A stretch of DNA of 64,000 bases from contig OZ024741.1 in the NCBI GenBank assembly GCA_964016885.1, forward strand, positions 223,882,001-223,946,000, read 5' to 3'. This DNA is from Eledone cirrhosa. Its lineage: Eukaryota. This document shows, piece by piece, positions 3,529 to 62,275 of the stretch. A program made the position numbers and the translations under genes. The notes beneath the pieces were generated by a model. It made no database searches. It worked only from the letters and a program-made list of their open reading frames with translations, and was not told the origin of the DNA. The stretch's first letter is position 1; every line of letters begins with the position of its first letter.

Positions 3529-3874
3529 ATCATCATCATCATCATCATCATTTTACGTCCACTTTTTCCCTGCTTGCAAGGGTGGGACGGGAACTGATTC
3601 TGGCTTGATTTCTACAGCTGGATGCCCTTCCTAACACCAACCTCATTTACAGTGAGTGCTGGGTGTTTTTTTGCCGTGGCACCCCCACGACCACTTTGCA
3701 GTGGAATGATAGGGACCCCAGTCTCTATCATCTCATTCCTACAGCTGAGTAAACTGGAGCAATGTGAAATAAAGTGTCTTGCTCAAGGAAACAACACATC
3801 ACCTGGTCTGAGAATTGAACTCACAACCTTTCGATTGCAAGGCCAATGCTCTAACCACTAAGCCATGTGCCTCC
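3529..3874 (-). mobile_element. tRNA-head/CORE-like SINE with RTE-derived tail (SINE-A)
   Basis: Reverse complement reads GGAGGCACATGGCTTAGTGG (box A), GAGTTCAATTC (box B), CCTTGAGCAAGACACTT (CORE-like), GGAAGGGCATCCAG module and a (GAT)n tail. Confidence 0.85.
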
Positions 3875-7540: not shown

Positions 7541-7886
7541 GGTGGCACATGGCTTAGTGGTTAGAGCATTGGCCTTGCAATCGAAAGGTTATGAGTTCAA
7601 TTCTCAAATCGGGTGATGTGTTGTTTCCTTGAGCAAGACACTTTATTTCACATTGCTCCAGTTTACTCAGCTGTAGAATTGAGATGATAGGACTGGGGTC
7701 CATATCATTCCACTGTAAAGTGGTCGTGTAGGCGCCACAGAAAAAAAGCATCCAGCACTCACTGTAAATGAGGTTGGTGTTAGGAAGGGCATCCAGCTGT
7801 AGAAATCAAGCCAGAATCAGTTCCCGTCCCACCCTTGCAAGCAGGGAAAAGCAGACGTAAAATGATGATGATGATGATGATGATGA
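7541..7886 (+). mobile_element. SINE-A
   Basis: Box A/B, CORE-like segment, RTE-type tail and (ATG)n; flanked by (TA)n. Confidence 0.85.
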
Positions 7887-8429: not shown

Positions 8430-11296
8430 CATCATCAGGTTTAGCGTCCGTGTTCCACGCTTGCATGGGTTTGGACGGGGGTTTTCCCACTTGAGGCAAG
8501 AGTGGTTGTCTTGCTCGCATAGGACTGTCTGGCGGGTTTTCTACAGTTGGATGCCCTTCCTAACACCAACCACATTTACAGTGTGGGGCTGGGAGGTTTT
8601 TACCGTGTTGCCTACACGGCCACATTACAGCGTGGACTGTCTGGCGGGTTTTCTACAGCTGGATGCCCTTCCTAACACCAACCACATTTACAGTGTGGGG
8701 CTGGGAGGTTTTTACCGTGTTGCCTACACGGCCACATTTACAGCGTGGACTGTGTGTTTTTTGTCGTGACACCTACACGATCTCATTTGTTTCGGCCTGG
8801 ATGTTGTGGGACCAACATAACTTTACATTGAAAGGGGCGGTGTGGAGGTGGTGGGACGGGGGTGTGTTTTGATAGAGGTGCCTACTGACTGTAGTAGGTT
8901 TTTACTTTGTATTTAGGTAAGGCGGGTCTTCTCTATTACTGTGTACCGCCAAAGGTCTCGGTCCAGTGACATTGTCTTGGAGAGGTGTAAGCGTGTGAGG
9001 TCGGAATTTATCAGCTCGTCCCATGTTTTTCTGGGTCTGCCTACTCCGTGGCTACCGTCTATCTTTATTGCCCTGCACTTTGTTATACAGCTGTCGTCTT
9101 TCATGCGCATCACGTGACCGTACCAACGTAGCCTTCTCTCGAGTAAACAACATCTGATCCCTCTTATTTCTAATTTTTTTCTTAGTTCGTTTATGCTTTG
9201 CCGTTCACGTATATTACTATTGCACATCCAGCGGAGCATGCAAGCTTCGTTCCTCTCTAGTCTGCGTATATCCTCTGCACACAATGCCCAGGTCTCACTG
9301 CCATGCAGCATTGCTGTTCGTATGCAGGCATCGTATAACCTGCCTTTCATTTTTAGGGAGAACCCTCTAGCGGCTAATAGTGGTATAAGCTCTCTGAACT
9401 TTTTCCATCCAGTTCTGACTCTAGCTACTGTACTTTCAGAGCACCCTCCCCCACTGCTGATTTTGTCACCCAGATAACGGAAGCTGTCCACTATTTCTAT
9501 AGAACCCTCTGCGCAGTTGAAGGAGCTAGTATTTTGTGGGCACTTGCTGCTACTTATTGCACCAGAGCACCGGCCACATGTAAAATCTATGTTCTTAGTT
9601 AGCTTACCTGTGATCCCACTACATCTTTTATGCACCCATACTTTGCATTTGGGACATAAAATGGAGTTTCTACCTACGCCTTTCCTACACACTGAGCATG
9701 GCCATTTCCCCGATGGGACCGCCGCCTTATTTTCTTTCCTACAAACTAGAACTTTAGTCTTAGCCAGGTTAATTTTAAGGCCTTTTGATTCTAGGCCGTG
9801 CTTCCACGTTTGGAATTTCTTCTCTAGTTCGGTCATTGATTCAGCTATGAGCGTTAGATCATCTGCGTATAGGAGTTCCCATGGGCAGCCGGTCTTGAAC
9901 TCCTCTGTTATAGCCTGAAGGGCAATAATAAATAGTAGGGGGCTAAGTACAGAGCCCTGATGGACACCAACTTTTACGCTAAACTCTTCACTATATTCGT
10001 TGTTAATTCTAACCTTACTGACTGTTTCTTTATACATGGCTTGTATAGCTCTCACAAGCCATTCGTCAACACCTAGTTTTCTAAGAGACCACCAGATAAT
10101 GGAACGGGGGACTCTGTCGAAGGCTTTCTCCAAGTCGACAAAAGCTAAGTATAGGGGTTTACTTTTAGCTAGGTACTTCTCCTGTAGTTGTCGTACAATG
10201 AAAAGAGCGTCTGTGGTACTTTTGCCTGACACAAACCCGAACTGCATTTCATCTAGATCAATTCTCTCTCTGATTAGTTGCGCTATTACTTTTTCCGTGA
10301 CCTTCATGACCTGGTCGATTAATTTAATGCCTCTATAGTTACTCCTATCTAGGGCATCTCCTTTTCCCTTATAGCAGTTAACGATGATGCTGCTACGCCA
10401 TTCCTTCGGAACAACCCCATTCTGTACGACTTGGTTAACTATCCGGGTGACCATGGTGTGTCCCACCGAACCAGATGCCTTCAGCATCTCAGCAACTATT
10501 TCCGAAGGCCCAGCCGCCTTACCCGTCTTCATATCTTTGATTGCCTTACTTATTATACTACCTTCAACTAACACTGCTGGTCCCTCTATTGGATCGATCT
10601 GGGGGAGACTGTCTTTCTCCCATTTGTTCTCCTCATTTAGAAGCCTTTCGTAGTGACACTTCCAAGCTACCTTCTTATCAGCGTCGGTGATGGCAAGTAT
10701 GCCATCATCGTTAAGTACACACTTCTCCCCGACAATATCACGGTTTTCCTTGACACATTGCCTGGCAATCCTGAACACCTCACGTTTTTTGGTCCTCACG
10801 TTGTAGAACATGCTTGAACTTTCTTTCCTCTGCTTCCCTTCTTGCGAAGTACACTTGTCTCCTAGCTTCCCTCCTGGCCACTTGATAGTCTTCTCTACTT
10901 CCCCCATCCCGCCATACTTTCCAAGCCTGCTTTTTGGCCTTAATTGACTCCTCCACCTTACTGTTCCACCACCATGTTACTCTCCTCCTACCTACAGGCC
11001 TGCTCCAGCCACAGACTTCGTCTGCCGCCGTCAGCAGGTTTGCTCTCAGGAATTCCCACTGTTCCTCTATATTATACGACTCTAATTGCTCTTCCTTACT
11101 GTCGAAAGCGTCAAGTAATTTGCTTTGAAATTTATTTCTGGCTATGGGGTCCTTTAGCTTCCATATTTTTCTCCTGAGGATAGTCCTCTTTCGCTGTCTA
11201 GTACGTCTCGTCCTGACTATGAGGTCGCTAATTATCAGTCTATGTTGGGAGGTGAATTCTTCATGGGGGTGGGATTTAGTGTTAACAACAGACACT
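8429..11296 (-). mobile_element. RTE LINE, 5'-truncated, one frameshift near 10785
   Basis: ORFs 10780-11295 and 8913-10907 carry QFGF, FVDLEKAFD, GVHQGSVLSP, YADD and the PHD-type finger; 3' UTR and (GAT)n tail present. Confidence 0.95.
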
Positions 11297-12018: not shown

Positions 12019-12096
12019 GTATGTATATATGTACATATATATATAGAATAAGGAAAAGCGAAGTAGTTTCAGATGTTCAAGTCCTTTAATAATAAT

Positions 12097-12274
12097 TGTT
12101 TCTACTTTAGGCACAAGGCCAGCAATTACCCAGTGCATTGCTGGTACTTTATTTTATCGACCCCGTAAGGATGAAAGGCAAAGTCAACCTCGGCGGGATT
12201 TGAACTCAGATCGTAAAGGGACGTAACTATGCTGGAAGGCATGGCGTCCGACCCTCTACCGATACTGCCAATCC
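12097..12274 (-). mobile_element. SINE-B inserted in the terminal repeat, AATAAT target duplication
   Basis: The empty site TTTAATAATAATGCTG is visible in the sister repeat near 13564-13579. Confidence 0.85.
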
Positions 12275-12280
12275 AATAAT

Positions 12281-12354
12281 GCTGTGATATATATTTCAAT
12301 GACGACACTGGCCACACTGTTCTGTGTGCGAGTGTCGTGACATCATCAGACAGC
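12281..12354 (-). ncRNA. Type I hammerhead ribozyme motif
   Basis: GCTGT-CTGATGA-[stem II ACGACACT/AGTGTCGT]-GAAA-TATATA-TC-ACAGC; 5-bp stem I, palindromic stem III, AUC triplet. Confidence 0.7.
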
Positions 12355-13828
12355 TTGTTACATAATAAGGTTATGTTTCCGAGGCAATCCAAACTGAATC
12401 GACATGGGAACGGATGAAGTTCGTGCTTTTGGGTTTTTCATCCGTTCCCCTGTGAGTACCAATTCACCCCCACCAGTCTGCGCAAGTGCATGTCCGAAGG
12501 AAGTTGACCATTAGCCACCGCAGATTTTAACGAAATTCGCTGTCAGTTCACCCTCTCGGCCAAAACAATGGCCCACCTATGCCCTACGAAAGTTTACTGC
12601 TACCCATCACTACTGTGGCAGTCAGCCGAAAGCCAGAGGGGATGGGAGGGTGTTAGTTTTTATAGGTCATAATACTACCTTTCACTAAGCGTTGACAGCA
12701 AGACTGACCATCAACTCATAAGGGAAAATTAACTTAATTCTTACCATGGTTTTACATTGTAAGTTAAGATTTGGAAATAAAAATAAAAAATAAAAATCCT
12801 AAATCAAATATCAGAGATTATAAATTAAACAACTAAAAATTAAAAAATTCTAAATTCAAAAATTTTTCAAGTGATAATTCGGATTGAGTAAAAATATACA
12901 TTGAAGTGAGTAAATAATATGGAGAGAGATGTTTAAGTAATAAGTTCTGAGAGGGATTCTAGTGTCACAGTTACTCTATCCACATATTGAACGACAGTGC
13001 CGTACATTATAACGGAGGGCAGACTACAGGGTTCAAGGCATTAGTCAATCTGTTACACGGTCATAATTTCCATCACATGGAACAAAATAAAAAAAAAACA
13101 GACATAAAGTACACAAAAGAAAAGAAAAGAACAGAACCAATAGTGAATAAATGCAAAAACACAGAGTACATATATGCAAAATGATTCATATGATTGTCCA
13201 TCTGTCCATGTATAGATTGAATTGAGGGGGCTTCTGTTCAAATGCGATTTGGTGCAGGAAAATAGGGGTTTATCTTATTTTTTGTTTCCGTGTATTTATC
13301 CTGCCGAAAGTTACTATTACGCCCGTCCAGTGTCAGGGGTTTTCATCCCCATGGTAGAGGGAATTTCCGGGGTAGCTCTTGGTTGGTTCCTCTCCTCTCC
13401 ACCATATCGGTTACATCATAGAGTGCTCAACTAATCGGAGCTAAATTATTAGGGTTAACATTGATGCAATTCAATTCAAGCACTCAACGTACTTTTTCCA
13501 CATAGGAGTGACGGAGTAAATATCGAATAAGGAAAAGCGAAGTAGTTTCAGATGTTCAAGTCCTTTAATAATAATGCTGTGATATATATTTCAATGACGA
13601 CACTGGCCGTACTGTTCTGTGTGCAAGTGTTGTGTCATCATGCCAGTGTTGTCATTGAAATATATATCACAGCATTATTATTAAAGGATTTGAACATCTG
13701 AAACTACTTCGCTTTTCCTTATTCGATATTTACTCCGTCACTCTTATGTGGAAAAAGTACGTTGAGTGCTTGAATTGAATTGCATCAATGTTAACCCTAA
13801 TAATACATATATATATATATATATAAAT

Positions 13829-22630: not shown

Positions 22631-23007
22631 TATCTTTTCTTTTACAGCTAACTGGCAATTCTAAGTGTCTTGTGAATTTAATTTAGCATGTTGTGAGATG
22701 TGGCTAAAAGGGTTGGCATCAGCAAGGGCATCTGGCTGTAAAGCATTGTCTCAAAACATCTCTTCCAAATTATGCAAGCATGGAAAAGTGGATGTAAAAA
22801 TGCTGATGATGATGGTGATGATGACCAACTGTGTCTAACTCTTAAAATTAACTGGACAGTTACATATATCATCATCGTTTTTACATCCACTTTTACCATA
22901 TATATATGTTTAATATATATATATATATATAAAAGTAGCGAAACAAACGGTTATTAAAAAATTTTCTAAATAAATTAAAAAATGATTAAATAATCACCTG
23001 TTCAGAT

Positions 23008-23088
23008 GCTGTTACCGACGGTTTCATCATTCCGAAAGATTGGAAATCCAACGAATTTCCAATGGAAAGAAATGAATCTTCAGACAGC
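23008..23088 (-). ncRNA. Type I hammerhead ribozyme motif
   Basis: GCTGT-CTGAAGA-T-TCATT..ATTGGAAAT/ATTTCCAAT..AATGA-T-GAAA-CCGTCGG-TA-ACAGC; GUA triplet. Confidence 0.8.
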
Positions 23089-23218
23089 CCCATTTCCACG
23101 CTATAAGGTATAGCAAGTAAATATTCTGCTCCCTGCCCAACGCATGCGGTCAAGCCTTTAAAGTGACACACACGCAAATCAGGTCGCTGACATTGTACCT
23201 GTTGAAGTATCCATCCAC

Positions 23219-23271
<53 letters not shown>

Positions 23272-29930: not shown

Positions 29931-32900
29931 TCATCATCATCATCATCATCAACGTTTAACGTCCGTGTTCCACGCTTGCATGGGTTTGGACGGGGGTAGT
30001 CCCACTTGAGGCAAGAGTGATTGTCTTGCTCGCATAGGACTGTCTGGCAGGTTTTCTACAGTTGGATGCCCTTCCTAACACCAACCACATTTACAGTGTG
30101 GGTCTGGGAGGTTTTTACCGTGTTGCCTACACGGCCACATTACAGCGTGGACTGTGTGTTTTTTGTCGTGACACCTACACGATCTCATTTGTTTCGGCCT
30201 CGATGGCGCGGCACCAACGTAACTTTACATAGAACGGGGTGGTGTGGATCGGGTGGGGGTGGGGGTGGTGGGACGGGGTGTATTTTGTTAGAGATGCCTA
30301 CTGGCTGGAGTAGGTTTTACTATATATTTAGGTAAGGCGGGTCTTCTCTGTTACTGAGTACCGCCAAAGGTCTCGGTCCAGTGACATTGTCTTGGAGAGG
30401 TGTAAGTGTGTGATGTCGGAGTTTATCAGCTCGTCCCAGGTTTTTCTAGGTCTGCCTATTCCGTGACTACCGTCTATCTTTATTGCCCTGCACTTTGTTA
30501 TACAGCTATCGACTTTCATGCGCATCACGTGTCCATACCAACGTAGCCTTCTCTCGAGTAAACAACATCTGATCCCTCTTATCTCTAATTTTTTCCTTAG
30601 TTCGTTTATGCTTTGCCGTTCACGTATATTACTGTTACACATCCAGCGGAGCATGCAAGCTTCGTTCCTCTCTAGTCTGCGTATATCCTCTGCACACAAT
30701 GCCCAGGTCTCACTGCCATGCAGCATTGCTGTTCGTATGCAGGCATCGTACAACCTGCCTTTCATTTTTAGTGAGAACCCTTTAGCAGCTAATAGTGGTA
30801 TAAGCTCTCTGAACTTTTTCCAACCAGTTCTGACTCTAGCTACAGTACTTTCAGAGCACCCTCCCCCACTGCTGATTTTATCGCCCAGGTAACGGAAGCT
30901 GTCCACTATTTCTATAGAACCCTCTGCGCAATTGAAAGAGCTAGTATTTTGTGGGCACTTGCTGCTACTTATTGCACCAGAGCACCGGCCACATGTAAAA
31001 TCTATGTTCTTAGTTAGCTTACCTGTGATCCCACTACATCTTTTATGCACCCATACTTTGCATTTAGGACATAAAATGGAGTTTCTACCTACGCCTTTCC
31101 TACACACCGAGCACGACCATTTCCCAGAAGGGACCGCCGCCTTGTTTTCTTTCCTACAAACTAGTACTTTGGTCTTAGCCAGGTTAATTTTAAGTCCTTT
31201 TGACTCTAGGCCGTGCTTCCATGTTTGGAATTTCTTCTCTAGCTCGGCCATTGATTCCGCTATGAGTGTCAGGTCGTCTGCGTATAGGAGTTCCCATGGG
31301 CAGCCTGTCTTGAACTCCTCTGTTATAGCCTGAAGGGCAATAATAAATAGTAGTGGACTGAGAACAGAGCCCTGATGGACGCCAACTTTTACGCTAAACT
31401 CTTCACTATATTCGTTGTTAATTCTAACCTTGCTGACTGTTTCTTTATACATGGCTTGTATAGCCCTCACAAGCCATTCGTCAACGCCTAGTTTTCTAAG
31501 AGCCCACCAGATAATGGAGCGGGGGACTCTGTCGAAGGCTTTCTCCAAGTCGACAAAAGCTAAGTAGAGGGGTTTACCTTTAGCTAGGTACTTCTCCTGT
31601 AGTTGTCGTACTATGAAAAGAGCGTCTGTGGTACTTTTGCCTGACACAAACCCGAACTGCATTTCATCTAGGTCAATTCTCTCTCTGATTAGTTGCGCTA
31701 TTACTCTTTCCGTGACCTTCATGACCTGGTCGATTAATTTAATGCCTCTATAGTTACTCCTATCTAGGGCGTCTCCTTTACCCTTATAACAGTTAACGAT
31801 GATGCTGCTATGCCAGTCCTTCGGAACAACCCCATTCTGTACGACTTGGTTAACTATGCGGGTGACCATGGTGTGTCCCACCGTGCCAGATGCCTTCAGC
31901 ATCTCAGCAACTATTTCCGAAGGCCCAGCCGCCTTACCAGTCTTCATATCCTTGATTGCCTTACTTATTATACTCCCCTCGACTAACACTGCTGGTCCCT
32001 CTATTGGGTCGATATGGGGGAGACTGCCTTTCTCCCAATTATTCTCCTCATTTAGAAGCCTTTCATAGTGACACTTCCAAGCTACCTTCTTATCAGCGTC
32101 GGTGATGGCAAGTGTGCCATCGTCGTTTAGTACACACTTCTCCCCGACAATATCACGGTTTTCCTTGACGCATTGCCTAGCAATCCTGAACACCTCACGT
32201 TTTTGGTCATCGCGTTGTAGAACATGCTTGAACTTTCTTTCCTCAGCTTCCCTTCTTGCTAAGTACACTTGTCTCCTAGCTTCCCTCCTGGCCACTTGAT
32301 AGTCCTCTCTACTTCCCCCATCCCGCCATACTTTCCAAGCCTGCTTTTTGGCCTTAATTGACCCCTCCACCTTACTGTTCCACCACCATGTTACTCTCCT
32401 CCTGCCTACAGGCCTGCTCCAGCCACAGACCTCGTCTGTCGCCAACAGCAGGTTTGCTTTCAGAAATTCCCACTCTCCCTCTATATTGTCCGACTCTAAA
32501 TGTTCTTCCTTACTGTCGAAAGCATCAAGTAATATGCTTTGAAATTTATTCCTGGCTGTGGGGTCCTTTAGCTTCCATATTTTCCTCCTGAGGATAGTCC
32601 TCTTCTGTTGTCGAGTACGTCTCGTCCTGACTATGAGGTCGCTAATTATCAGTCTATGTTGGGAGGTGCATTCTTCATGGGGGAGGGATTTAGTGTTAAC
32701 AACAGACACTCTGTCACGTCTTCTGGTAAGGATATAATCTACCTGGCTTGTGTGTTCCCCGGATCTATAGGTGATCAGGTGATTGTCACGTTTTTTGAAG
32801 TTAGTGTTACAGATAGTTAGGTTATTTGCATCACAGAATTCCAGGATTCTGGAGCCTTCCTCATTTCTAGTACCAAACCCATAGCCTCCATGGATTTCGT

Positions 32901-33252
32901 CGTAGCCGTCACAATGTTGTCCAACGTGACCATTTAGGTCGCCTGCGATAATTATATAGTCACTGTCGGATATTTGGGAGGTAGTTAGCATCAGTGTCTC
33001 ATAGAATCTGTCTTTTATAGTGCCGGGCAGTCCGGATTGGGGTGCGTACGCAGATATTACTGTCACCGTAGTTCTATTGAGGACAAGTCGTATTTTAATT
33101 ATTCTGTCGTTCACTCTATTTACGTCTATTATCTTATCTGCCCACTTTTCTGCTACCATGATTCCTACTCCACCCAGCCCATCGTCGTTTCCCACCCAGA
33201 AAAGCTTATAACAACGTTTTTTACCCTCAATGAACCTAGCAGACCCACCCCT
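29931..33252 (-). mobile_element. RTE LINE, young, 5'-truncated within the endonuclease
   Basis: Uninterrupted ORF, 3' UTR and (GAT)n tail. Confidence 0.96.
30328..33252 (-). CDS. RTE ORF: AP endonuclease + reverse transcriptase + PHD-type zinc finger (N-terminus missing)
   Basis: SAYAPQ, GDLNGHVG, VDYIL, SQHR (APE); QFGF, DLEKAFD, GVHQGSVLSP, YADD, FRYLG (RT). The MCLH start of the 978-aa ORF comes from the adjacent SINE. Confidence 0.9.
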   Translation of the reverse strand, partial: RGGSARFIEGKKRCYKLFWVGNDDGLGGVGIMVAEKWADKIIDVNRVNDRIIKIRLVLNRTTVTVISAYAPQSGLPGTIKDRFYETLMLTTSQISDSDYIIIAGDLNGHVGQHCDGYDEIHGGYGFGTRNEEGSRILEFCDANNLTICNTNFKKRDNHLITYRSGEHTSQVDYILTRRRDRVSVVNTKSLPHEECTSQHRLIISDLIVRTRRTRQQKRTILRRKIWKLKDPTARNKFQSILLDAFDSKEEHLESDNIEGEWEFLKANLLLATDEVCGWSRPVGRRRVTWWWNSKVEGSIKAKKQAWKVWRDGGSREDYQVARREARRQVYLARREAEERKFKHVLQRDDQKREVFRIARQCVKENRDIVGEKCVLNDDGTLAITDADKKVAWKCHYERLLNEENNWEKGSLPHIDPIEGPAVLVEGSIISKAIKDMKTGKAAGPSEIVAEMLKASGTVGHTMVTRIVNQVVQNGVVPKDWHSSIIVNCYKGKGDALDRSNYRGIKLIDQVMKVTERVIAQLIRERIDLDEMQFGFVSGKSTTDALFIVRQLQEKYLAKGKPLYLAFVDLEKAFDRVPRSIIWWALRKLGVDEWLVRAIQAMYKETVSKVRINNEYSEEFSVKVGVHQGSVLSPLLFIIALQAITEEFKTGCPWELLYADDLTLIAESMAELEKKFQTWKHGLESKGLKINLAKTKVLVCRKENKAAVPSGKWSCSVCRKGVGRNSILCPKCKVWVHKRCSGITGKLTKNIDFTCGRCSGAISSSKCPQNTSSFNCAEGSIEIVDSFRYLGDKISSGGGCSESTVARVRTGWKKFRELIPLLAAKGFSLKMKGRLYDACIRTAMLHGSETWALCAEDIRRLERNEACMLRWMCNSNIRERQSINELRKKLEIRGIRCCLLERRLRWYGHVMRMKVDSCITKCRAIKIDGSHGIGRPRKTWDELINSDITHLHLSKTMSLDRDLWRYSVTEKTRLT

Positions 33253-33571
33253 GTGGAGGCACATGGCTTAGTGGTTAGAGCATTGGCCTTGCAATCGAAA
33301 GGTTGTGAGTTCAATTCTTGGACCGGGTGATGTGTTGTTTCCTTGAGTAAGACACTTTATTTCACATTGCTCCAGTTTACTCAGCTGTAGAAATGAGATG
33401 ATAGGGACTGTGGTCCATATCATTCCACTGCACAGTGGTCGTGGAGGTGCCATGGCAAAAAAGCACCCAGCACTCACTGTAAATGAGGTTGGTGTTAGGA
33501 AGGGCATCCAGCTGTAGAAATCAAGCCAGAATCAGTTCCCGTCCCACCCTTGCAAGCAGGGAAAAGCGGAC
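33253..33571 (+). mobile_element. SINE-A, head-to-head with the RTE
   Basis: GGAGGCACATGGCTTAGTGG...; tail clipped before (GAT)n. Confidence 0.85.
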
Positions 33572-45145: not shown

Positions 45146-45394
45146 AGGTTTGAACTTTTTACTCAGAATTCTAGCATGTTACATGTAGTAGCTGGCCCAC
45201 CAAACCACTGACCCCCCCCCCCCCCTAATACCTGTCTGGGATAATCTTCTTCTACTGTTAGTTCTCAGCTATTATCTTAACAAGTCTTCATTGAAATGAC
45301 ATTCCAAATTTCAAGATTGTAATGATTACTACAACTCCATTAACTAGAACAATTGTTCAGCTTTGTTTTGAGATCCTGATTCATATACACGACC

Positions 45395-48300
45395 ATGCAT
45401 ATACATACTCATACATATACATACTCATACATATACATACTCATACATATACATACTCATACATATACATACTCATCCATATACATACTCATACATATAC
45501 ATACTCATACATATACATACTCATACATATACATACTCATACATATACATACTCATACATATACATACTCATACATATACATACTTATACATATACATAC
45601 TCATAGATATACATACTCATAGATATACATACTCATACATATACATACTCATACATATACATACTCATACATATACATACTCATCCATATACATACTCAT
45701 GCATATACATACTCATACATATACATACTCATGCATATACATACTCATAGATATACGTACTCATGCATATACATACTCATGCATATACATACTTATGCAT
45801 ATACATACTCATACATATACATACTCATAGATATACATACTCATACATATACATACTCATACATATACATACTCATACATATACATACTCATACATATAC
45901 ATACTCATACATATACATACTCATACATATACATACTCATGCATATACATACTCATAGATATACATACTTATACATATACATACTCATACATATACATAC
46001 TCATACATATACATACTCATCCATATACATACTCATACATATACATACTCATAGATATACATACTCATGCATATACATACTCATACATATACATACTCAT
46101 AGATATTCATACTCATACATATACATACTCATACATATACATACTCAGATATACATACTCATACATATACATACTCATACATATACATACTCATACATAT
46201 ACATACTCATACATATACATACTCATAGATATACATACTCATACATATACATACTCATAGATATACATACTCATACATATACATACTCATACATATACAT
46301 ACTCATAGATATACGTACTCATGCATATACATACTCATGCATATACATACTCATACATATACATACTCAGATATACATACTCATACATATACATACTCAT
46401 AGATATACGTACTCATGCATATACATACTCATACATATACATACTCAGATATACATACTCATACATATACATACTCATAGATATACATACTCATACATAT
46501 ACGTACTCATACATACACATACTCATACATATACATACTCATAGATAAACATACTCATAGATATACATACTCATACATATACATACTCATCCATATACAT
46601 ACTCATACATATACATACTCATACATATACATACTCATACATATACATACTCATGCATATACATACTCATACATATACATACTCATAGATAAACATACTC
46701 ATAGATATACATACTCATACATATACATACTCATACATATACATACTCATAGATATACATACTCATGCATATACATACTCATAGATATACATACTCATAC
46801 ATATACATACTCATGCATATACATACTCATAGATATACATAATCATAGATATACATACTCATAGATATACATACTCATACATATACATACTCATACATAT
46901 ACATACTCATACATATACATACTCATACATATACATACTCATACATATACATACTCATGCATATACATACTCATACATATACATACTCATAGATATACAT
47001 ACTCATGCATATACATACTCATACATATACATACTCATGCATATACATACTCATCCATATACATACTCATACATATACATACTCATGCATATACATACTC
47101 ATACATATACATACTCATACATATACATACTCATAGATATACATACTCATACATATACATACTCATACATATACATACTTATACATATACATATACATAC
47201 TCATACATATACATACTCATACATATACATACTCATACATATACATACTCATCCATATACATACTCATACATATACATACTCATACATATACATACTCAT
47301 ACATATACATACTCATACATATACATACTCATACATATACATACTCATACATATACATACTCATACATATACATACTCATACATATACATACTCATACAT
47401 ATACATATACATACTCATACATACTCATACATATACATACTCATACATATACATACTCATACATATACATATACATACTCATACATACTCATAGATATAC
47501 ATACTTATACATATACATACTCATACATATACATACTCATACATACACATACTCATGCATATACATACTCATAGATATACATACTCATAGATATACATAC
47601 TCATACATATACATACTCATAGATATACATACTCATACATATACATACTCATACATATACATACTCATACATATACATACTCATACATACACATATACAT
47701 ACTCATAGATATACATACTCATACATATACATACTCATACATATACATATACATACTCATAGATATACATAATCATACATATACATACTCATACATATAC
47801 ATACTCATACATATACATAATCATACATATACATACTCATAGATATACGTACTCATGCATATACATACTCATAGATATACATACTCATACATATACATAC
47901 TCATACATACACATACTCATACATATACATAATCATACATATACATACTCATAGATATACATACTCATACATATACATACTCATACATATACATACTCAT
48001 ACATATACATACTCATACATACACATACTCATACATATACATACTCATAGATATACATACTCATACATATACATACTCATACATATACATACTCATACAT
48101 ATACATACTCATGCATATACATACTCATAGATATACATACTTATACATATACATACTCATACATATACATACTCATACATATACATACTCATCCATATAC
48201 ATACTCATACATATACATACTCATAGATATACATACTCATGCATATACATACTCATACATATACATACTCATAGATATTCATACTCATACATATACATAC

Positions 48301-50615
48301 TCATACATATACATACTCAGATATACATACTCATACATATACATACTCATACATATACATACTCATACATATACATACTCATACATATACATACTCATAG
48401 ATATACATACTCATACATATACATACTCATAGATATACATACTCATACATATACATACTCATACATATACATACTCATAGATATACGTACTCATGCATAT
48501 ACATACTCATGCATATACATACTCATACATATACATACTCAGATATACATACTCATACATATACATACTCATAGATATACGTACTCATGCATATACATAC
48601 TCATACATATACATACTCAGATATACATACTCATACATATACATACTCATAGATATACATACTCATACATATACGTACTCATACATACACATACTCATAC
48701 ATATACATACTCATAGATAAACATACTCATAGATATACATACTCATACATATACATACTCATCCATATACATACTCATACATATACATACTCATACATAT
48801 ACATACTCATACATATACATACTCATGCATATACATACTCATACATATACATACTCATAGATAAACATACTCATAGATATACATACTCATACATATACAT
48901 ACTCATACATATACATACTCATAGATATACATACTCATGCATATACATACTCATAGATATACATACTCATACATATACATACTCATGCATATACATACTC
49001 ATAGATATACATAATCATAGATATACATACTCATAGATATACATACTCATACATATACATACTCATACATATACATACTCATACATATACATACTCATAC
49101 ATATACATACTCATACATATACATACTCATGCATATACATACTCATACATATACATACTCATAGATATACATACTCATGCATATACATACTCATACATAT
49201 ACATACTCATGCATATACATACTCATCCATATACATACTCATACATATACATACTCATGCATATACATACTCATACATATACATACTCATACATATACAT
49301 ACTCATAGATATACATACTCATACATATACATACTCATACATATACATACTTATACATATACATATACATACTCATACATATACATACTCATACATATAC
49401 ATACTCATACATATACATACTCATCCATATACATACTCATACATATACATACTCATACATATACATACTCATACATATACATACTCATACATATACATAC
49501 TCATACATATACATACTCATACATATACATACTCATACATATACATACTCATACATATACATACTCATACATATACATATACATACTCATACATACTCAT
49601 ACATATACATACTCATACATATACATACTCATACATATACATATACATACTCATACATACTCATAGATATACATACTTATACATATACATACTCATACAT
49701 ATACATACTCATACATACACATACTCATGCATATACATACTCATAGATATACATACTCATAGATATACATACTCATACATATACATACTCATAGATATAC
49801 ATACTCATACATATACATACTCATACATATACATACTCATACATATACATACTCATACATACACATATACATACTCATAGATATACATACTCATACATAT
49901 ACATACTCATACATATACATATACATACTCATAGATATACATAATCATACATATACATACTCATACATATACATACTCATACATATACATAATCATACAT
50001 ATACATACTCATAGATATACGTACTCATGCATATACATACTCATAGATATACATACTCATACATATACATACTCATACATACACATACTCATACATATAC
50101 ATAATCATACATATACATACTCATAGATATACATACTCATACATATACATACTCATACATATACATACTCATACATATACATACTCATACATACACATAC
50201 TCATACATATACATACTCATAGATATACATACTCATACATATACATACTCATAGATATACGTACTCATACATATACATACTCATGCATATACATACTCAT
50301 ACATATACATACTCATAGATATACATACTCATAGATATACGTACTCATACATATACATACTCATACATATACATAATCATACATATACATACTCATAGAT
50401 ATATGTACTCATGCATATACATACTCATAGATATACATACTCATACATATACATACTCATACATACACATACTCATACATATACATACTCATAGATAAAC
50501 ATACTCATAGATATACATACTCATACATATACATACTCATACATATACATACTCATACATATACATATACATACTCATACATATACATACTTATACATAT
50601 ACATACTCATACATA
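45395..50615. repeat. 16-bp satellite (CATATACATACTCATA)n, ~5.2 kb, with a 2172-bp higher-order duplication
   Basis: Read directly; identical translated blocks at 45939/48111 and 47037/49209. Confidence 0.95.
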
Positions 50616-51054
50616 CGCACAGATACACACACATATAAATGCGCACAGAGACACATGGGCAAACATGCAAATATGCACACACAAAAACACACACACAAAC
50701 ACATGTACACATACATGCACAAGCACACATACGCAGACACAATTTGGGAGATGAACACTGCAGGAGGCCCTGATATATGTGAGTGTATGGATGTGTGTGC
50801 TTGGGTCTGTGTTGTTTATGTCCTGTAACTTAGTGATTTGGCAAAAAAAAAGTACTGTGGTTGATATGATTGACAAAAACTGTTCAAGATAGCACCGCAA
50901 TATTGCCCCAAGCCTTATTACCGAAACTAATAAAAAGTAATTAAAAAAAGTCTAAGAGCTGGAACTGAAGTAAACTACTTACAATAGAAATATTCCACTT
51001 TGGAATGGAAAGAGTCTACTTTCACAATTATTCATCAGATTAATCAAAGGTTTG

Positions 51055-53169: not shown

Positions 53170-53587
53170 TCATCATCATCATCACCGTTTTACGTCCGTT
53201 CTTCCATGCTAGCATGGGTTAGACGGGTTGTCCTGTTGTGGGCAGTGTCCAGTCGGCTGACCTTGTCTTGCTCATATGGGAAGTGATTCTGGCTTCCTAA
53301 CACCAACCTCATTTACTGTAAGTGCGGGGTGCTATTTTCCATGGCGCCTACACGTCCAGTTTACAGTGTGGGCTGGGTGCTTTTTTGCCATAGCACCTCC
53401 ACGACCACTTTGCAGTGGAATGATAGGGACCCCAGTCCTATCATCTTATTTCTACAGCTGAGTAAACTGGAGCAATGTGAAATAAAGTGTCTTGCTCAAG
53501 GAAACAACACATCACCCGGTCCGAGAATTGAACTCACAACCTTTCGATTGCAAGCCCAATGCTCTAACCACTAAGCCATGCGCCTTC
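53170..53587 (-). mobile_element. SINE-A long variant with near-complete RTE tail
   Basis: GAAGGCGCATGGCTTAGTGG head; tail retains segments deleted in the short SINE-A copies. Confidence 0.85.
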
Positions 53588-59354: not shown

Positions 59355-62275
59355 ATCATCATCATCATCATCATCTTCCCCGTTTAACGTCCACTTTCCA
59401 CGCTAGCATGGGTTAGATGGGAGTTGTCCCACTTGAAGCAAGCTTGGTCAGGTGACCATGTCTCGCTCATATAGGACTATCTGGCAGGTTTTCTACGGCT
59501 GGATGCCCTTCCTAACACCAACCACATTTACAGTGTGGAACTGGGAACTTTTTACCGTGCTACCTACACGGCCACATTACAGCGTGTACTGTGTTTTTTT
59601 CTCGTGACACCTACACGATCTCAATCTCATTTATCTCATTTATTTGGACTGAATGATGTGGTACCAACTTAACAGAGAGAGGGTGGTGATAGTGGGAGTG
59701 GGAGGATGGAGTAGGGGTAGTGGATTGGGGTGTATATTTGGTTAAGAGGTGCCTACTGACTGTAGGTTTCGCTTTGTACATAGGCAAGGCAGGTCTTCTG
59801 TATTACTGCGTAGCGCCAAAGATCTCGGTCCAGTGACATTGTCTTAGAGAGGTGCAAGTGTGTAAGGTCGGAATTTATCAGATCGTCCCAGGTTTTTCTG
59901 GGTCTACCTACTCCATAACAACCATCAATTTTGATCGCCCTGCACTTTTTTATACAGCTGTCGTCTTTCATGCGCATCACGTGAACATACCAACGTAGTC
60001 TTCTCTCAAGTAAATAGCATCTGATCCCTCTTATTCCTAATTTCTCACTTAGTTCATTTATGCTTTGCCGTTCACGTATATTACTATTACACATCCAACG
60101 GAGCATGCATGCTTCGTTCCTTTCCAGTCTATGCAGGTCCTCTGCATGTAATGCCCATGTCTCACTGCCATGTAGCATTGCTGTTCGTATACAAGCATCA
60201 TACAATCTGCCTTTCATTTTTAGAGAGAAACCTTTTGTGGCCAACAGCGGTATAAGCCCTCTGAACTTTTTCCATCCCTTCTGACTCTAGCTACTGTACT
60301 TTCAGAGCACCCTCCACCACTGCTGATTTTGTCACCCAGGTAACGGAAAGTGTCTACTATTTCTATAGAACCATCTGGGCAATAGAAGGAGCTAGTATCC
60401 TGTGGGCACTTGCTACTTATTGCACCTGAGCATCGGCCACATATAAAGTTTACGTTCTTAGTTAGCTTACCTGTGATCCCACTACATCTTTTATGTACCC
60501 ATACTTTGCATTTGGGACATAAAATTGAATTTCTGCCTACTCCTTTCCTACACACTGAGCATGGCCATTTCCCTGAGGGTACCTGTACTTTATTTTCCTT
60601 TCTACAAACTAGAACTTTAGTCTTAGACAAGTTAACTTTAAGGCCTTTTGATTCTAGGCCATGCTTCCATGTTTGGAATTTCTTCTCTAGTTCAGCCATA
60701 GATTCAGCTATGAGCATTAGATCATCTGCGTATAGGAGTTCCCATGGGCAGCCGGTCTTGAACTCCTCTGTTATAGCCTGAAGGGCAATAATAAATAAGA
60801 GGGGGCTAAGGACAGAGCCTTGGTGAACACCAACTTTTACACTAAATTCTTCACAATATTCTTTGTTAATTCTAATCTTACTGACTGTTTCATTATACAT
60901 AGCTTGTATAGCTCTCACAAGCCATTTATCTACACCTAGTTTTCTAAGAGCCCACCAGATAATGGAGCGGAGGACTCTGTCAAAAGCTTTCTCCAGGTCT
61001 ACAAAAGCTAAGTAGAGGGGTTTACTTTTAGTTAGGTACTTCTCTTGTAGTTGTCGTACAAGGAAAAGAGCATCTGTGGTACTTTTACCTGACACAAACC
61101 CAAACTGCATTTCATCTAGATCAATTCGCTCTCTGTTTAGTTGCGCTTTAACTCTTTCCGTGACCTTCATGACCTGGTCAACTAACTTAATGCCTCTATA
61201 GTTTCCCCTATCTAGAGCATCCCCTTTACCCTTGTAGCAGTTAATGATGATGCTGCTACGCCAGTCTTTCGGTATGACCCCATTCTGTATTACTTGGTTA
61301 ACTATATGGGTGACCATAGTGTGTCCCACCATACCAGATGCCTTCAACATCTCAGCAACTATCTCCGAAGGCCCAGCTGCTTTGCCTGTCTTCATATCTT
61401 TGATTGCCTTACTTATTATACTACCTTTAACTTGCACCACTGGTCCTTCTATTGGATCGATTTGGGGCAGACTATCTTTTTCCCATTTATTCTCCTCATT
61501 TAATAGTCTCTCGTAGTGACACTTCCAGGCTCTCTTCTTATCAGTATCAGTGGGGGCAAGTACACCGTTATAATTACGGACACACTTCTCCCCGACAATA
61601 TCATGGTTTTCCTTGACACATTGTCTAGCAATCCTGAACACCTCACGTTTTTGGTCCTCACGTTGCAGAACATGCTTGAATTTTCTATCCTCTGCTTCCC
61701 TTTTTGCAAGGTACACTTGTCTCCTAGCTTCTCTCCTGGCCACTTGATAGTGCTCTCTACTTCCCCCATCCTGCCATTCTTTCCAAGCCTGCTTTTTGGC
61801 CTTGATTGTCTCTTCCACCTTACTGTTCCACCACCAAGTTACTCTCCTCCTGCCAATAGGTCTGCTCCAGCCACAGATTTCATCCGTTGCTTTCAGCAGG
61901 TTCACTTTCAAGAATTGCCACTGTTCCTCTATATTGCACGTCTTTAATTGTTCTTCCTTATTGTCAAAGCCATCAAGTAATAAGCTTTTAAATTTGTCAC
62001 AGGCTATGGGGTCCTTCAACTTCCATATTCTTCTCCTCAAGGTAGGCCTCCTCTGTCATCGAGTACGTCTATTCCTGACTATGAGGTCACTAACTACTAG
62101 GCTATGTTGGGAGGTGCATTCTTCATGGGGGAGGGATTTAGTGTTTACAACAGACATTTTGTCACGTCTTCTAGTAAGGATATAATCTATCTGGCTGGCG
62201 TGTTCTACTGATCTATAGGTGATCAAGTGGTTTTCACGTTTTTTGAAGTTTGTGTTACAGATAGTTAGGCTATTT
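59355..62275 (-). mobile_element. RTE LINE, 5'-truncated, frameshift near 60280
   Basis: ORFs 60220-62040 and 59753-60244; YADD, PHD finger, 3' UTR, (GAT)n. Confidence 0.95.

What the first reader, a model, noticed from the sequence alone, without database searches (positions are those of the whole stretch)
23008..23088. Best hammerhead candidate, in a ~290-bp TA-flanked module
Seen: perfect stem I, CUGAAGA, a two-part stem II (5-7 bp plus 9-11 bp), GAAA, a quasi-palindromic stem III ACCG-T-CGGT and a GUA site. The module (~22931-23222) retains CpGs, suggesting it is young. It shares the GCTGT/ACAGC stem I with the 12281 HHR while stems II and III differ entirely, so structure is conserved without sequence.
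Basis: partly seen in the sequence, partly recalled or inferred. Interest (0 to 1): 0.75.

Follow-up and report, generated by a model that had tools for sequence, protein, structure and literature searches.

The report
Hammerhead retrozyme fragment with Penelope footprint
This is a broken-off, two-armed copy of a 457-base non-coding repeat, found hundreds of times in TA microsatellites of this animal genome, that carries a conserved hammerhead fold predicted to cut its own RNA and whose insertion pattern likely records copying by a Penelope-type jumping-gene enzyme.

Summary
The type I hammerhead is real: minus strand 23088-23008, the only strict hit in the window, 0 of 200 shuffles. The '290-bp module' is not the unit. 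It is a 264-bp arm plus a 36-bp inverted arm of a 457-bp non-coding tandem monomer (464 exact-prefix copies; 708 in the wider clade; arrays up to about 28 units). In 28 copies chosen by a flank motif, the catalytic core is 97% conserved against 78-82% in the flanks, and four stem II pairs covary. Copies end at two fixed sites (A, B; 105 nt apart) in (TA)n. Inverted insertions pair one A with one B in 21 of 22 cases (sister subfamilies 15 of 17). An intact RT-GIY-YIG Penelope-like element here shows the same footprint but shares no sequence. Best reading: a non-LTR retrozyme, likely copied from an RNA circle by Penelope-type machinery. Cleavage, circles and expression are untested, and the predicted minimum-energy fold is not the active one. 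This lone copy cannot make a circle. The scan noted the same footprint before in other families, here and in other genomes.

The parts
23008..23088 (-). Type I hammerhead ribozyme motif (stem I 23088-23084/23012-23008; CUGAAGA 23083-23077; stem II 23076-23026; GAAA 23025-23022; stem III 23022-23014; GUA site, predicted cut between 23013 and 23012)
   Evidence: letter for letter the commonest form among the loci fetched
22927..23190 (-). Main arm: monomer positions 280-457 and 1-86 (numbered from the predicted cut), 5'-truncated, ending at fixed site A in (TA)n
   Evidence: 4 differences in 264
23190..23225 (+). Inverted arm: monomer positions 156-191, ending at fixed site B in (TA)n; joined to the main arm with 1 nt of overlap
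22899..22931 (.). Left TA-rich microsatellite (target; the boundary with the element is ambiguous by a few bases)
23222..23268 (.). Right (TA)n microsatellite (target)
12281..12354 (-). Comparison only: type I hammerhead of a second, unrelated non-coding family (unit about 1.3 kb) with the same stem I and the same two-armed A/B layout (element about 12046-13802)

Best explanation
This is a truncated, two-armed genomic copy of a 457-bp non-coding tandem repeat with a conserved type I hammerhead fold (a non-LTR retrozyme), whose tandem transcripts are predicted to self-cleave into unit-length RNA that likely circularises and is likely copied back into TA microsatellites by a Penelope-like element's enzyme. 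Shown: the motif, the unit, the arrays, core conservation, stem II covariation, two fixed ends, TA flanks, A/B pairing of inverted arms, variants shared by a whole array, and an intact Penelope-like element with the same footprint. Inferred: (1) an array is transcribed and each hammerhead cuts after GUA, perhaps as a dimer through the palindromic stem III or with protein help; (2) a host ligase closes the 457-nt monomer; (3) the enzyme nicks both strands of a (TA)n tract and starts reverse transcription inside the RNA, 86 nt (A) on one strand and 191 nt (B) on the other downstream of the cut; (4) each cDNA runs round the circle for a variable distance and the two are joined head to head. Here the arms ran 264 and 36 nt. 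With one hammerhead and no whole unit, this copy cannot itself make a circle.
For: Unit 457 bp, 100% matched repeats in L013; longest open frame 69 codons. 464 matches to a 25-nt prefix of this subfamily, 708 to the clade's hammerhead pattern, 768 to a flank motif; controls 0. Core 299/308, stem I 256/280, stem III 180/196 against 1284/1652 and 1721/2100 in the flanks, in 28 of 30 flank-chosen copies that run through; core whole in 22 of 28. Subfamily b by flank: majority letter equals this family at 28 of 28 core/stem I/stem III places, 229 of 316 elsewhere. 4 stem II pairs change on both sides; 0 of 500 shuffles reach the covariation score. 38 distinct complete insertions: all 58 three-prime outer ends at A or B although the unit has 6 TATA sites; 20 of 20 inverted ones pair A with B; with two longer arrays 21 of 22 (p about 5e-6 at even odds). 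Sister subfamilies 15 of 17 scorable (duplicates merged by hand). All 25 whole units scored in both arms of the C1:156.4-Mb array share two variants seen in none of the other arrays scored; all 10 at C2:226.7 Mb share one. A 775-aa RT plus GIY-YIG element (at least 150 close copies) has its own type I hammerhead motif, TA flanks, two ends 44 nt apart and A/B pairing in 4 of 4 long loci that hold both arms. PMC11167929 shows in vitro that a Penelope-like enzyme nicks both strands of AT-rich DNA and starts at two internal sites that bound the tail. The monomer folds better than 100 of 100 shuffles, z -5.2.
Against: No cleavage, circle or transcript was observed. The minimum-energy fold of the isolated motif buries the core; the active fold is 4.9 kcal/mol higher alone, 5.0 in the module and 8.4 in a tandem stretch, and stem III is barely populated. 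RNAalifold picks another hairpin over the lower stem II. Rfam hammerhead models do not match. No sequence is shared with the one Penelope-like family I examined, so the partner is unidentified. Li et al. saw cleavage in only 1 of 9 predicted retrozymes. The flank motif was derived from copies first found by their core, so the conservation test is not wholly independent; covariation cells are related sequences from 5 subfamilies, not independent events. Exceptions to A/B: one A/A (L024-L025, mirrored flanks), one B/B (L087), one ambiguous (L150); 7 of 24 sister insertions could not be scored. Some variants recur in scattered units of an array (194T>G in 5 of 25), which one perfect circle does not explain without recurrent error or later conversion.
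Confidence: 0.78

Rival explanations
1. Same element and same enzyme, but the template is a linear multimeric transcript that escapes cleavage; circles are not needed and the hammerhead has some other role or cuts slowly.
For: The active fold is disfavoured in tandem context. In PMC11167929 hammerhead mutants insert normally and uncut RNA is the main substrate in vitro. Scattered recurrent variants within arrays.
Against: An array of about 28 units (about 13 kb) would need a transcript that survives that many cut sites. Array-private variants sit in every unit of both arms, which a homogeneous source array could also give, so this is not decisive. Arms cross the predicted cut site freely.
Confidence: 0.13
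2. An inert satellite: the end of an extinct Penelope-like element that spread by DNA-level duplication, with a hammerhead look-alike that no longer works.
For: No Rfam match; misfolding in silico; Li et al. favour local expansion by unequal crossover for such arrays and found 8 of 9 tested elements inactive.
Against: Dispersed insertions with exact, strand-coupled ends in (TA)n are not made by unequal crossover. The core stays fixed while the flanks drift to about 72% and stem II covaries.
Confidence: 0.05
3. The element is a SINE-like passenger of the LINEs that fill the window, with inversions made by ordinary twin priming at TATA microhomologies.
For: Intact-looking endonuclease-RT LINE frames are common in the window; both fixed ends finish in TATA.
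Against: No similarity between the unit and any other part of the window, LINE tails included; no A plus B box pair; only 2 of 6 TATA sites are used and always one of each; the footprint matches the Penelope-like element instead.
Confidence: 0.04

Closest known systems
Metazoan non-LTR retrozymes (Cervera and de la Pena 2020, PMC7229834, parts 2-4 of 6 read; Li, Clavereau and Pollet 2026, 10.64898/2026.07.22.740005, parts 1-3 of 5 read)
   Same: Non-coding tandem unit of a few hundred bp, GC under 50% (35%), one type I hammerhead per unit, dispersed monomers to multimers, a self-paired predicted fold, Penelope-like elements in the same genome. The U.U at the base of stem II recalls axolotl HHR_Amex2, the palindromic stem III recalls the dimer-acting amphibian motifs, and the lack of an obvious loop 1-loop 2 contact recalls the mussel motif.
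   Different: 457 bp is at the upper end of the 150-450 bp range of the 2020 paper (Li et al. report up to 972). Stem II is 51 nt with an internal loop and a second helix. The parts I read do not describe (TA)n targeting, two fixed internal ends or head-to-head arms for retrozymes. Circles and cleavage were shown there and are not shown here.
Penelope-like elements with C-terminal GIY-YIG endonuclease (Craig et al. 2021, PMC8557442, 12 passages read; Frangieh et al. 2024, PMC11167929, parts 1-3 of 4 read)
   Same: Partial tandems, an inverted 5'-truncated arm, a tail on one end only, microsatellite bias, a type I hammerhead near the 3' end, two internal start sites for reverse transcription.
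   Different: No protein is encoded. The tail is 105 nt, not 30-40. No sequence similarity to the one local family tested. Frangieh et al. saw no difference in start site between the two strands in vitro, whereas the genomic copies here pair one A with one B.

Membership tests
Type I hammerhead ribozyme | Core CUGANGA, GAAA and NUH around three helices, stem I open | tested here: met
   0 of 200 shuffles strict
Type I hammerhead ribozyme | Core conserved and helices covarying across diverged copies | tested here: met
   covariation only in the lower stem II; stems I and III are invariant and so silent on pairing
Type I hammerhead ribozyme | Match to an Rfam hammerhead model | tested here: not met
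   the 51-nt stem II may be why (inference)
Type I hammerhead ribozyme | Active fold is thermodynamically favoured | tested here: inconclusive
   4.9-8.4 kcal/mol above the minimum; the stem III palindrome dimerises at -11.3 kcal/mol in isolation
Type I hammerhead ribozyme | Self-cleavage leaving 2',3'-cyclic phosphate and 5'-OH | not testable with these tools
   needs the bench
Non-LTR retrozyme | Non-coding tandem unit of a few hundred bp with a type I hammerhead in at least two consecutive units | tested here: met
   family; the window copy itself holds one hammerhead and less than one unit
Non-LTR retrozyme | Dispersed multi-copy family without LTRs | tested here: met
   PBS and PPT were not searched for separately
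Non-LTR retrozyme | Expressed as linear and circular unit-length RNA | not testable with these tools
   no RNA holder listed; only contigs could be laid
Non-LTR retrozyme | Penelope-like elements present in the same genome | tested here: met
Autonomous Penelope-like element | RT plus GIY-YIG reading frame | tested here: not met
   longest frame 69 codons; no tblastn hit of the local protein to the unit
Penelope-like element (footprint) | Inverted truncated arm, tail on one end only, microsatellite target | tested here: met
Penelope-like element (pLTR derivative) | Sequence similarity to the pLTR of a coding element | tested here: inconclusive
   none to the one family tested; other families glimpsed in flanks were not followed
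tRNA-derived SINE | Internal A and B boxes and a LINE-like 3' tail | tested here: not met

The most novel reading that the evidence does not exclude
The strict A/B pairing is the genomic record of a dimeric Penelope-type enzyme that grips one ribozyme-made RNA circle at two fixed sites and copies it onto both nicked strands at once, rolling round the circle in each arm. The hammerhead would supply the circle and a structured stretch 3' of the cut, not shared sequence, would recruit the enzyme. This 457-nt unit and the intact local element would then be a ready in vitro pair for the open question of how animal retrozymes are mobilised.
Probability: 0.4. Interest if true: 0.72.

Novelty: new member of a known kind. 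Interest (0 to 1): 0.48.

Why it matters
Animal retrozymes were proposed to move as RNA circles with the help of Penelope-like elements, on grounds of co-occurrence and, in frogs, sequence similarity. This family gives insertion-level evidence: fixed internal start sites, strand-coupled A/B ends and array-wide shared variants, beside an intact candidate enzyme with the same footprint. It names the exact RNA, sites and target for a bench test. The hammerhead itself is an ordinary type I motif, and this copy is a dead end.

Tried and rejected
Rfam: no hammerhead family; the miRNA hits are TA repeats far below their gathering scores. Expression: no RNA holder listed among 6 runs, no evidence either way. 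Contigs of 4 runs of unrecorded kind were laid: two runs hold a contig that reads round the 457-bp unit, which a tandem array in DNA gives as well as a circle, so I drew nothing on circles from it. Partner search: only one Penelope-like family was followed; no similarity. Pol III promoter: one A-box-like word on the opposite strand, no B box. Array periodicity as a sign of multimeric circles: one array has a variant in units 2 and 5 and another in two units 3 apart, but the longest shows no period; not claimed. One search returned nothing (bad alignment setting) and was rerun. The generic pattern excludes this family because its stem II spacer is 51 nt. In one search overlapping loci were counted twice; I merged them by place and dropped L192 (diverged pieces) and the edge-cut records; of these, L024-L025 and L188-L189 were scored by hand, and L111 (right end outside the stretch) was not scored. 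Literature searches listed no paper on this family or on A/B pairing in retrozymes; the library lacks most subscription journals, and I did not open the supplements of PMC7229834 or PMC8557442, nor could I see those of the preprint, which may hold related sequences. A sequence look-up in earlier findings gave nothing for this family.

Full report
Observation. A descriptor scan found it as the only hit in the window; 200 dinucleotide shuffles gave no strict hit. That descriptor missed the weaker 12281 motif. The predicted cut is between 23013 and 23012. Rfam has no matching hammerhead model.

The real unit. Searching the genome (3.0 Gb, 1796 contigs) with the module gave 220 matches from the 39 candidates scored, most at 98% and spaced 457 bp apart. 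The unit is 457 bp, 35% GC, with no frame over 69 codons. The window copy is two arms: 264 bp of the unit on the minus strand and 36 bp on the plus strand, between TA tracts. It differs from a reference unit at 5 of 300 letters, none in the ribozyme, and keeps its CpGs. A 25-nt prefix of this subfamily has 464 exact matches, the clade's hammerhead pattern 708 and a flank motif 768, each with 0 in the reversed control. Five subfamilies range from about 70% to over 99% identity to the unit.

Is the fold under selection? In 30 copies picked by a motif about 60-80 nt upstream of the hammerhead, 28 run through it. The core is identical at 299 of 308 letters, stems I and III at about 91%, and the flanks at 78% and 82%; 22 of 28 cores are whole. 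For subfamily b picked by its flank, the majority letter equals this family's at 28 of 28 core, stem I and stem III places and at 229 of 316 others. Both seeds came from copies first found by their core, so the test is not fully independent. Across 24 sequences, 4 pairs of the lower stem II change on both sides and no shuffle of 500 reaches the covariation score; these are related sequences, not independent events. In run X1 the listed differences include the paired change at both sides of one stem II pair and none in core, stem I or stem III. Against this, the predicted minimum-energy fold buries the core, the active fold lies 4.9-8.4 kcal/mol higher, and RNAalifold chooses another hairpin. 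The stem III palindrome pairs well between two molecules, as in the dimer-acting amphibian motifs described in PMC7229834.

Insertion footprint. Of 38 distinct complete insertions, every 3' outer end lies at one of two sites, 86 (A) or about 191 (B) nt downstream of the predicted cut, nearly always running into (TA)n; 5' ends are scattered. The unit has 6 TATA sites and only these two are used. Twenty insertions are inverted and all 20 pair one A with one B. Two longer arrays add one A/B and one A/A with mirrored flanks: 21 of 22, p about 5e-6 at even odds. In loci not used before, mostly sister subfamilies, 24 distinct inverted insertions gave 15 A/B, 1 B/B, 1 ambiguous and 7 unscorable (merged by hand). 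The window copy is A/B. In the longest array, about 28 units in two arms, all 25 whole units scored carry two variants seen in none of the other arrays scored; all 10 units of another share one. This fits repeated copying of one template, though a homogeneous source array could give the same.

The likely enzyme. The genome holds a young Penelope-like family with intact 775-aa frames carrying RT and C-terminal GIY-YIG domains. Its linker reads CX4CxxC, the motif that PMC8557442 ties to Neptune elements and microsatellite bias; I did not place it on a tree. It has its own type I hammerhead motif, ends in (TA)n at two sites 44 nt apart, and pairs them A/B in 4 of 4 long loci that hold both arms. 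It shares no sequence with the unit, so it is a candidate, not the identified partner. PMC8557442 describes the inverted arm and one-sided 30-40 bp tail for such elements (passages). PMC11167929 shows that a purified one nicks both strands of AT-rich DNA and starts reverse transcription at two internal sites bounding the tail, that hammerhead mutants still insert, and that the start site does not differ by strand. The window's LINEs share nothing with the unit.

The 12281 motif belongs to a second non-coding family with a unit of about 1.3 kb, a 78-nt tail and the same layout; its window copy runs from an A end near 12046 to a B end near 13802. Outside stem I and the core the two hammerheads are unrelated. 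A generic pattern with this stem I has 3053 further matches.

Known or new. This fits the animal non-LTR retrozymes of PMC7229834 (parts 2-4 read) and of the 2026 preprint (parts 1-3 read), which propose Penelope-like elements as the mobiliser. My five searches (listings) showed no paper on this family or on the A/B pairing. Earlier notes of this scan describe the same footprint in other families of this and other genomes; I had measured it before reading them, and none matches this sequence. That the host resembles a cephalopod is my recollection, not a result. Verdict: a real, conserved type I hammerhead motif in a dead-end copy of a new member of a known kind, with a footprint that makes the mobilisation model directly testable. 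Cleavage, expression and circles remain unshown.

Noticed in passing
window 12046-13802: A second hammerhead family with a unit of about 1.3 kb, two arms, A end at left and B end at right; the hairpin at 13553-13696 that Rfam scores weakly as a miRNA is its inverted junction.
   Followed up: partly
window about 12098-12280: A roughly 185-bp SINE-like repeat sits just 3' of the 12281 hammerhead's cut site with a short duplicated AAT stretch; a similar insert lies near the same place in L035, L039 and L040, suggesting a preferred site.
   Followed up: partly
L183:2362-4689 and its 3' end: Young intact Penelope-like element, 775 aa, with its own short type I hammerhead motif (palindromic stem III) and two TA-flanked ends; 29,588 first-look candidates.
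   Followed up: partly
L024-L025 (G000:C3, 54.56 Mb): The one A/A inverted insertion; its two TA flanks are mirror images of each other, so it may have formed by a different route.
   Followed up: no
unit positions 1-86 (window 23012-22927, minus): The stretch between the predicted cut and site A is better conserved than the 5' flank across subfamilies and folds into a long hairpin; a candidate binding site for the enzyme.
   Followed up: no
window 8913-10976, 30328-33267, 60220-62055 (minus): Long LINE frames with RT and a PHD-like finger; the 979-aa one also has an endonuclease domain.
   Followed up: no
window 45373-50650: A 5-kb low-complexity tandem array with strong strand skew and a block repeated 2172 bp apart.
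   Followed up: no
window 7550-7607, 53521-53578, 3808-3865: Weak tRNA matches in Rfam, probably tRNA-derived SINE heads.
   Followed up: no
L003, L004, L023, L045, L092, L105 flanks: Pieces of several other Penelope-like families lie in the same TA tracts as the retrozyme copies; any of them could be the partner.
   Followed up: no
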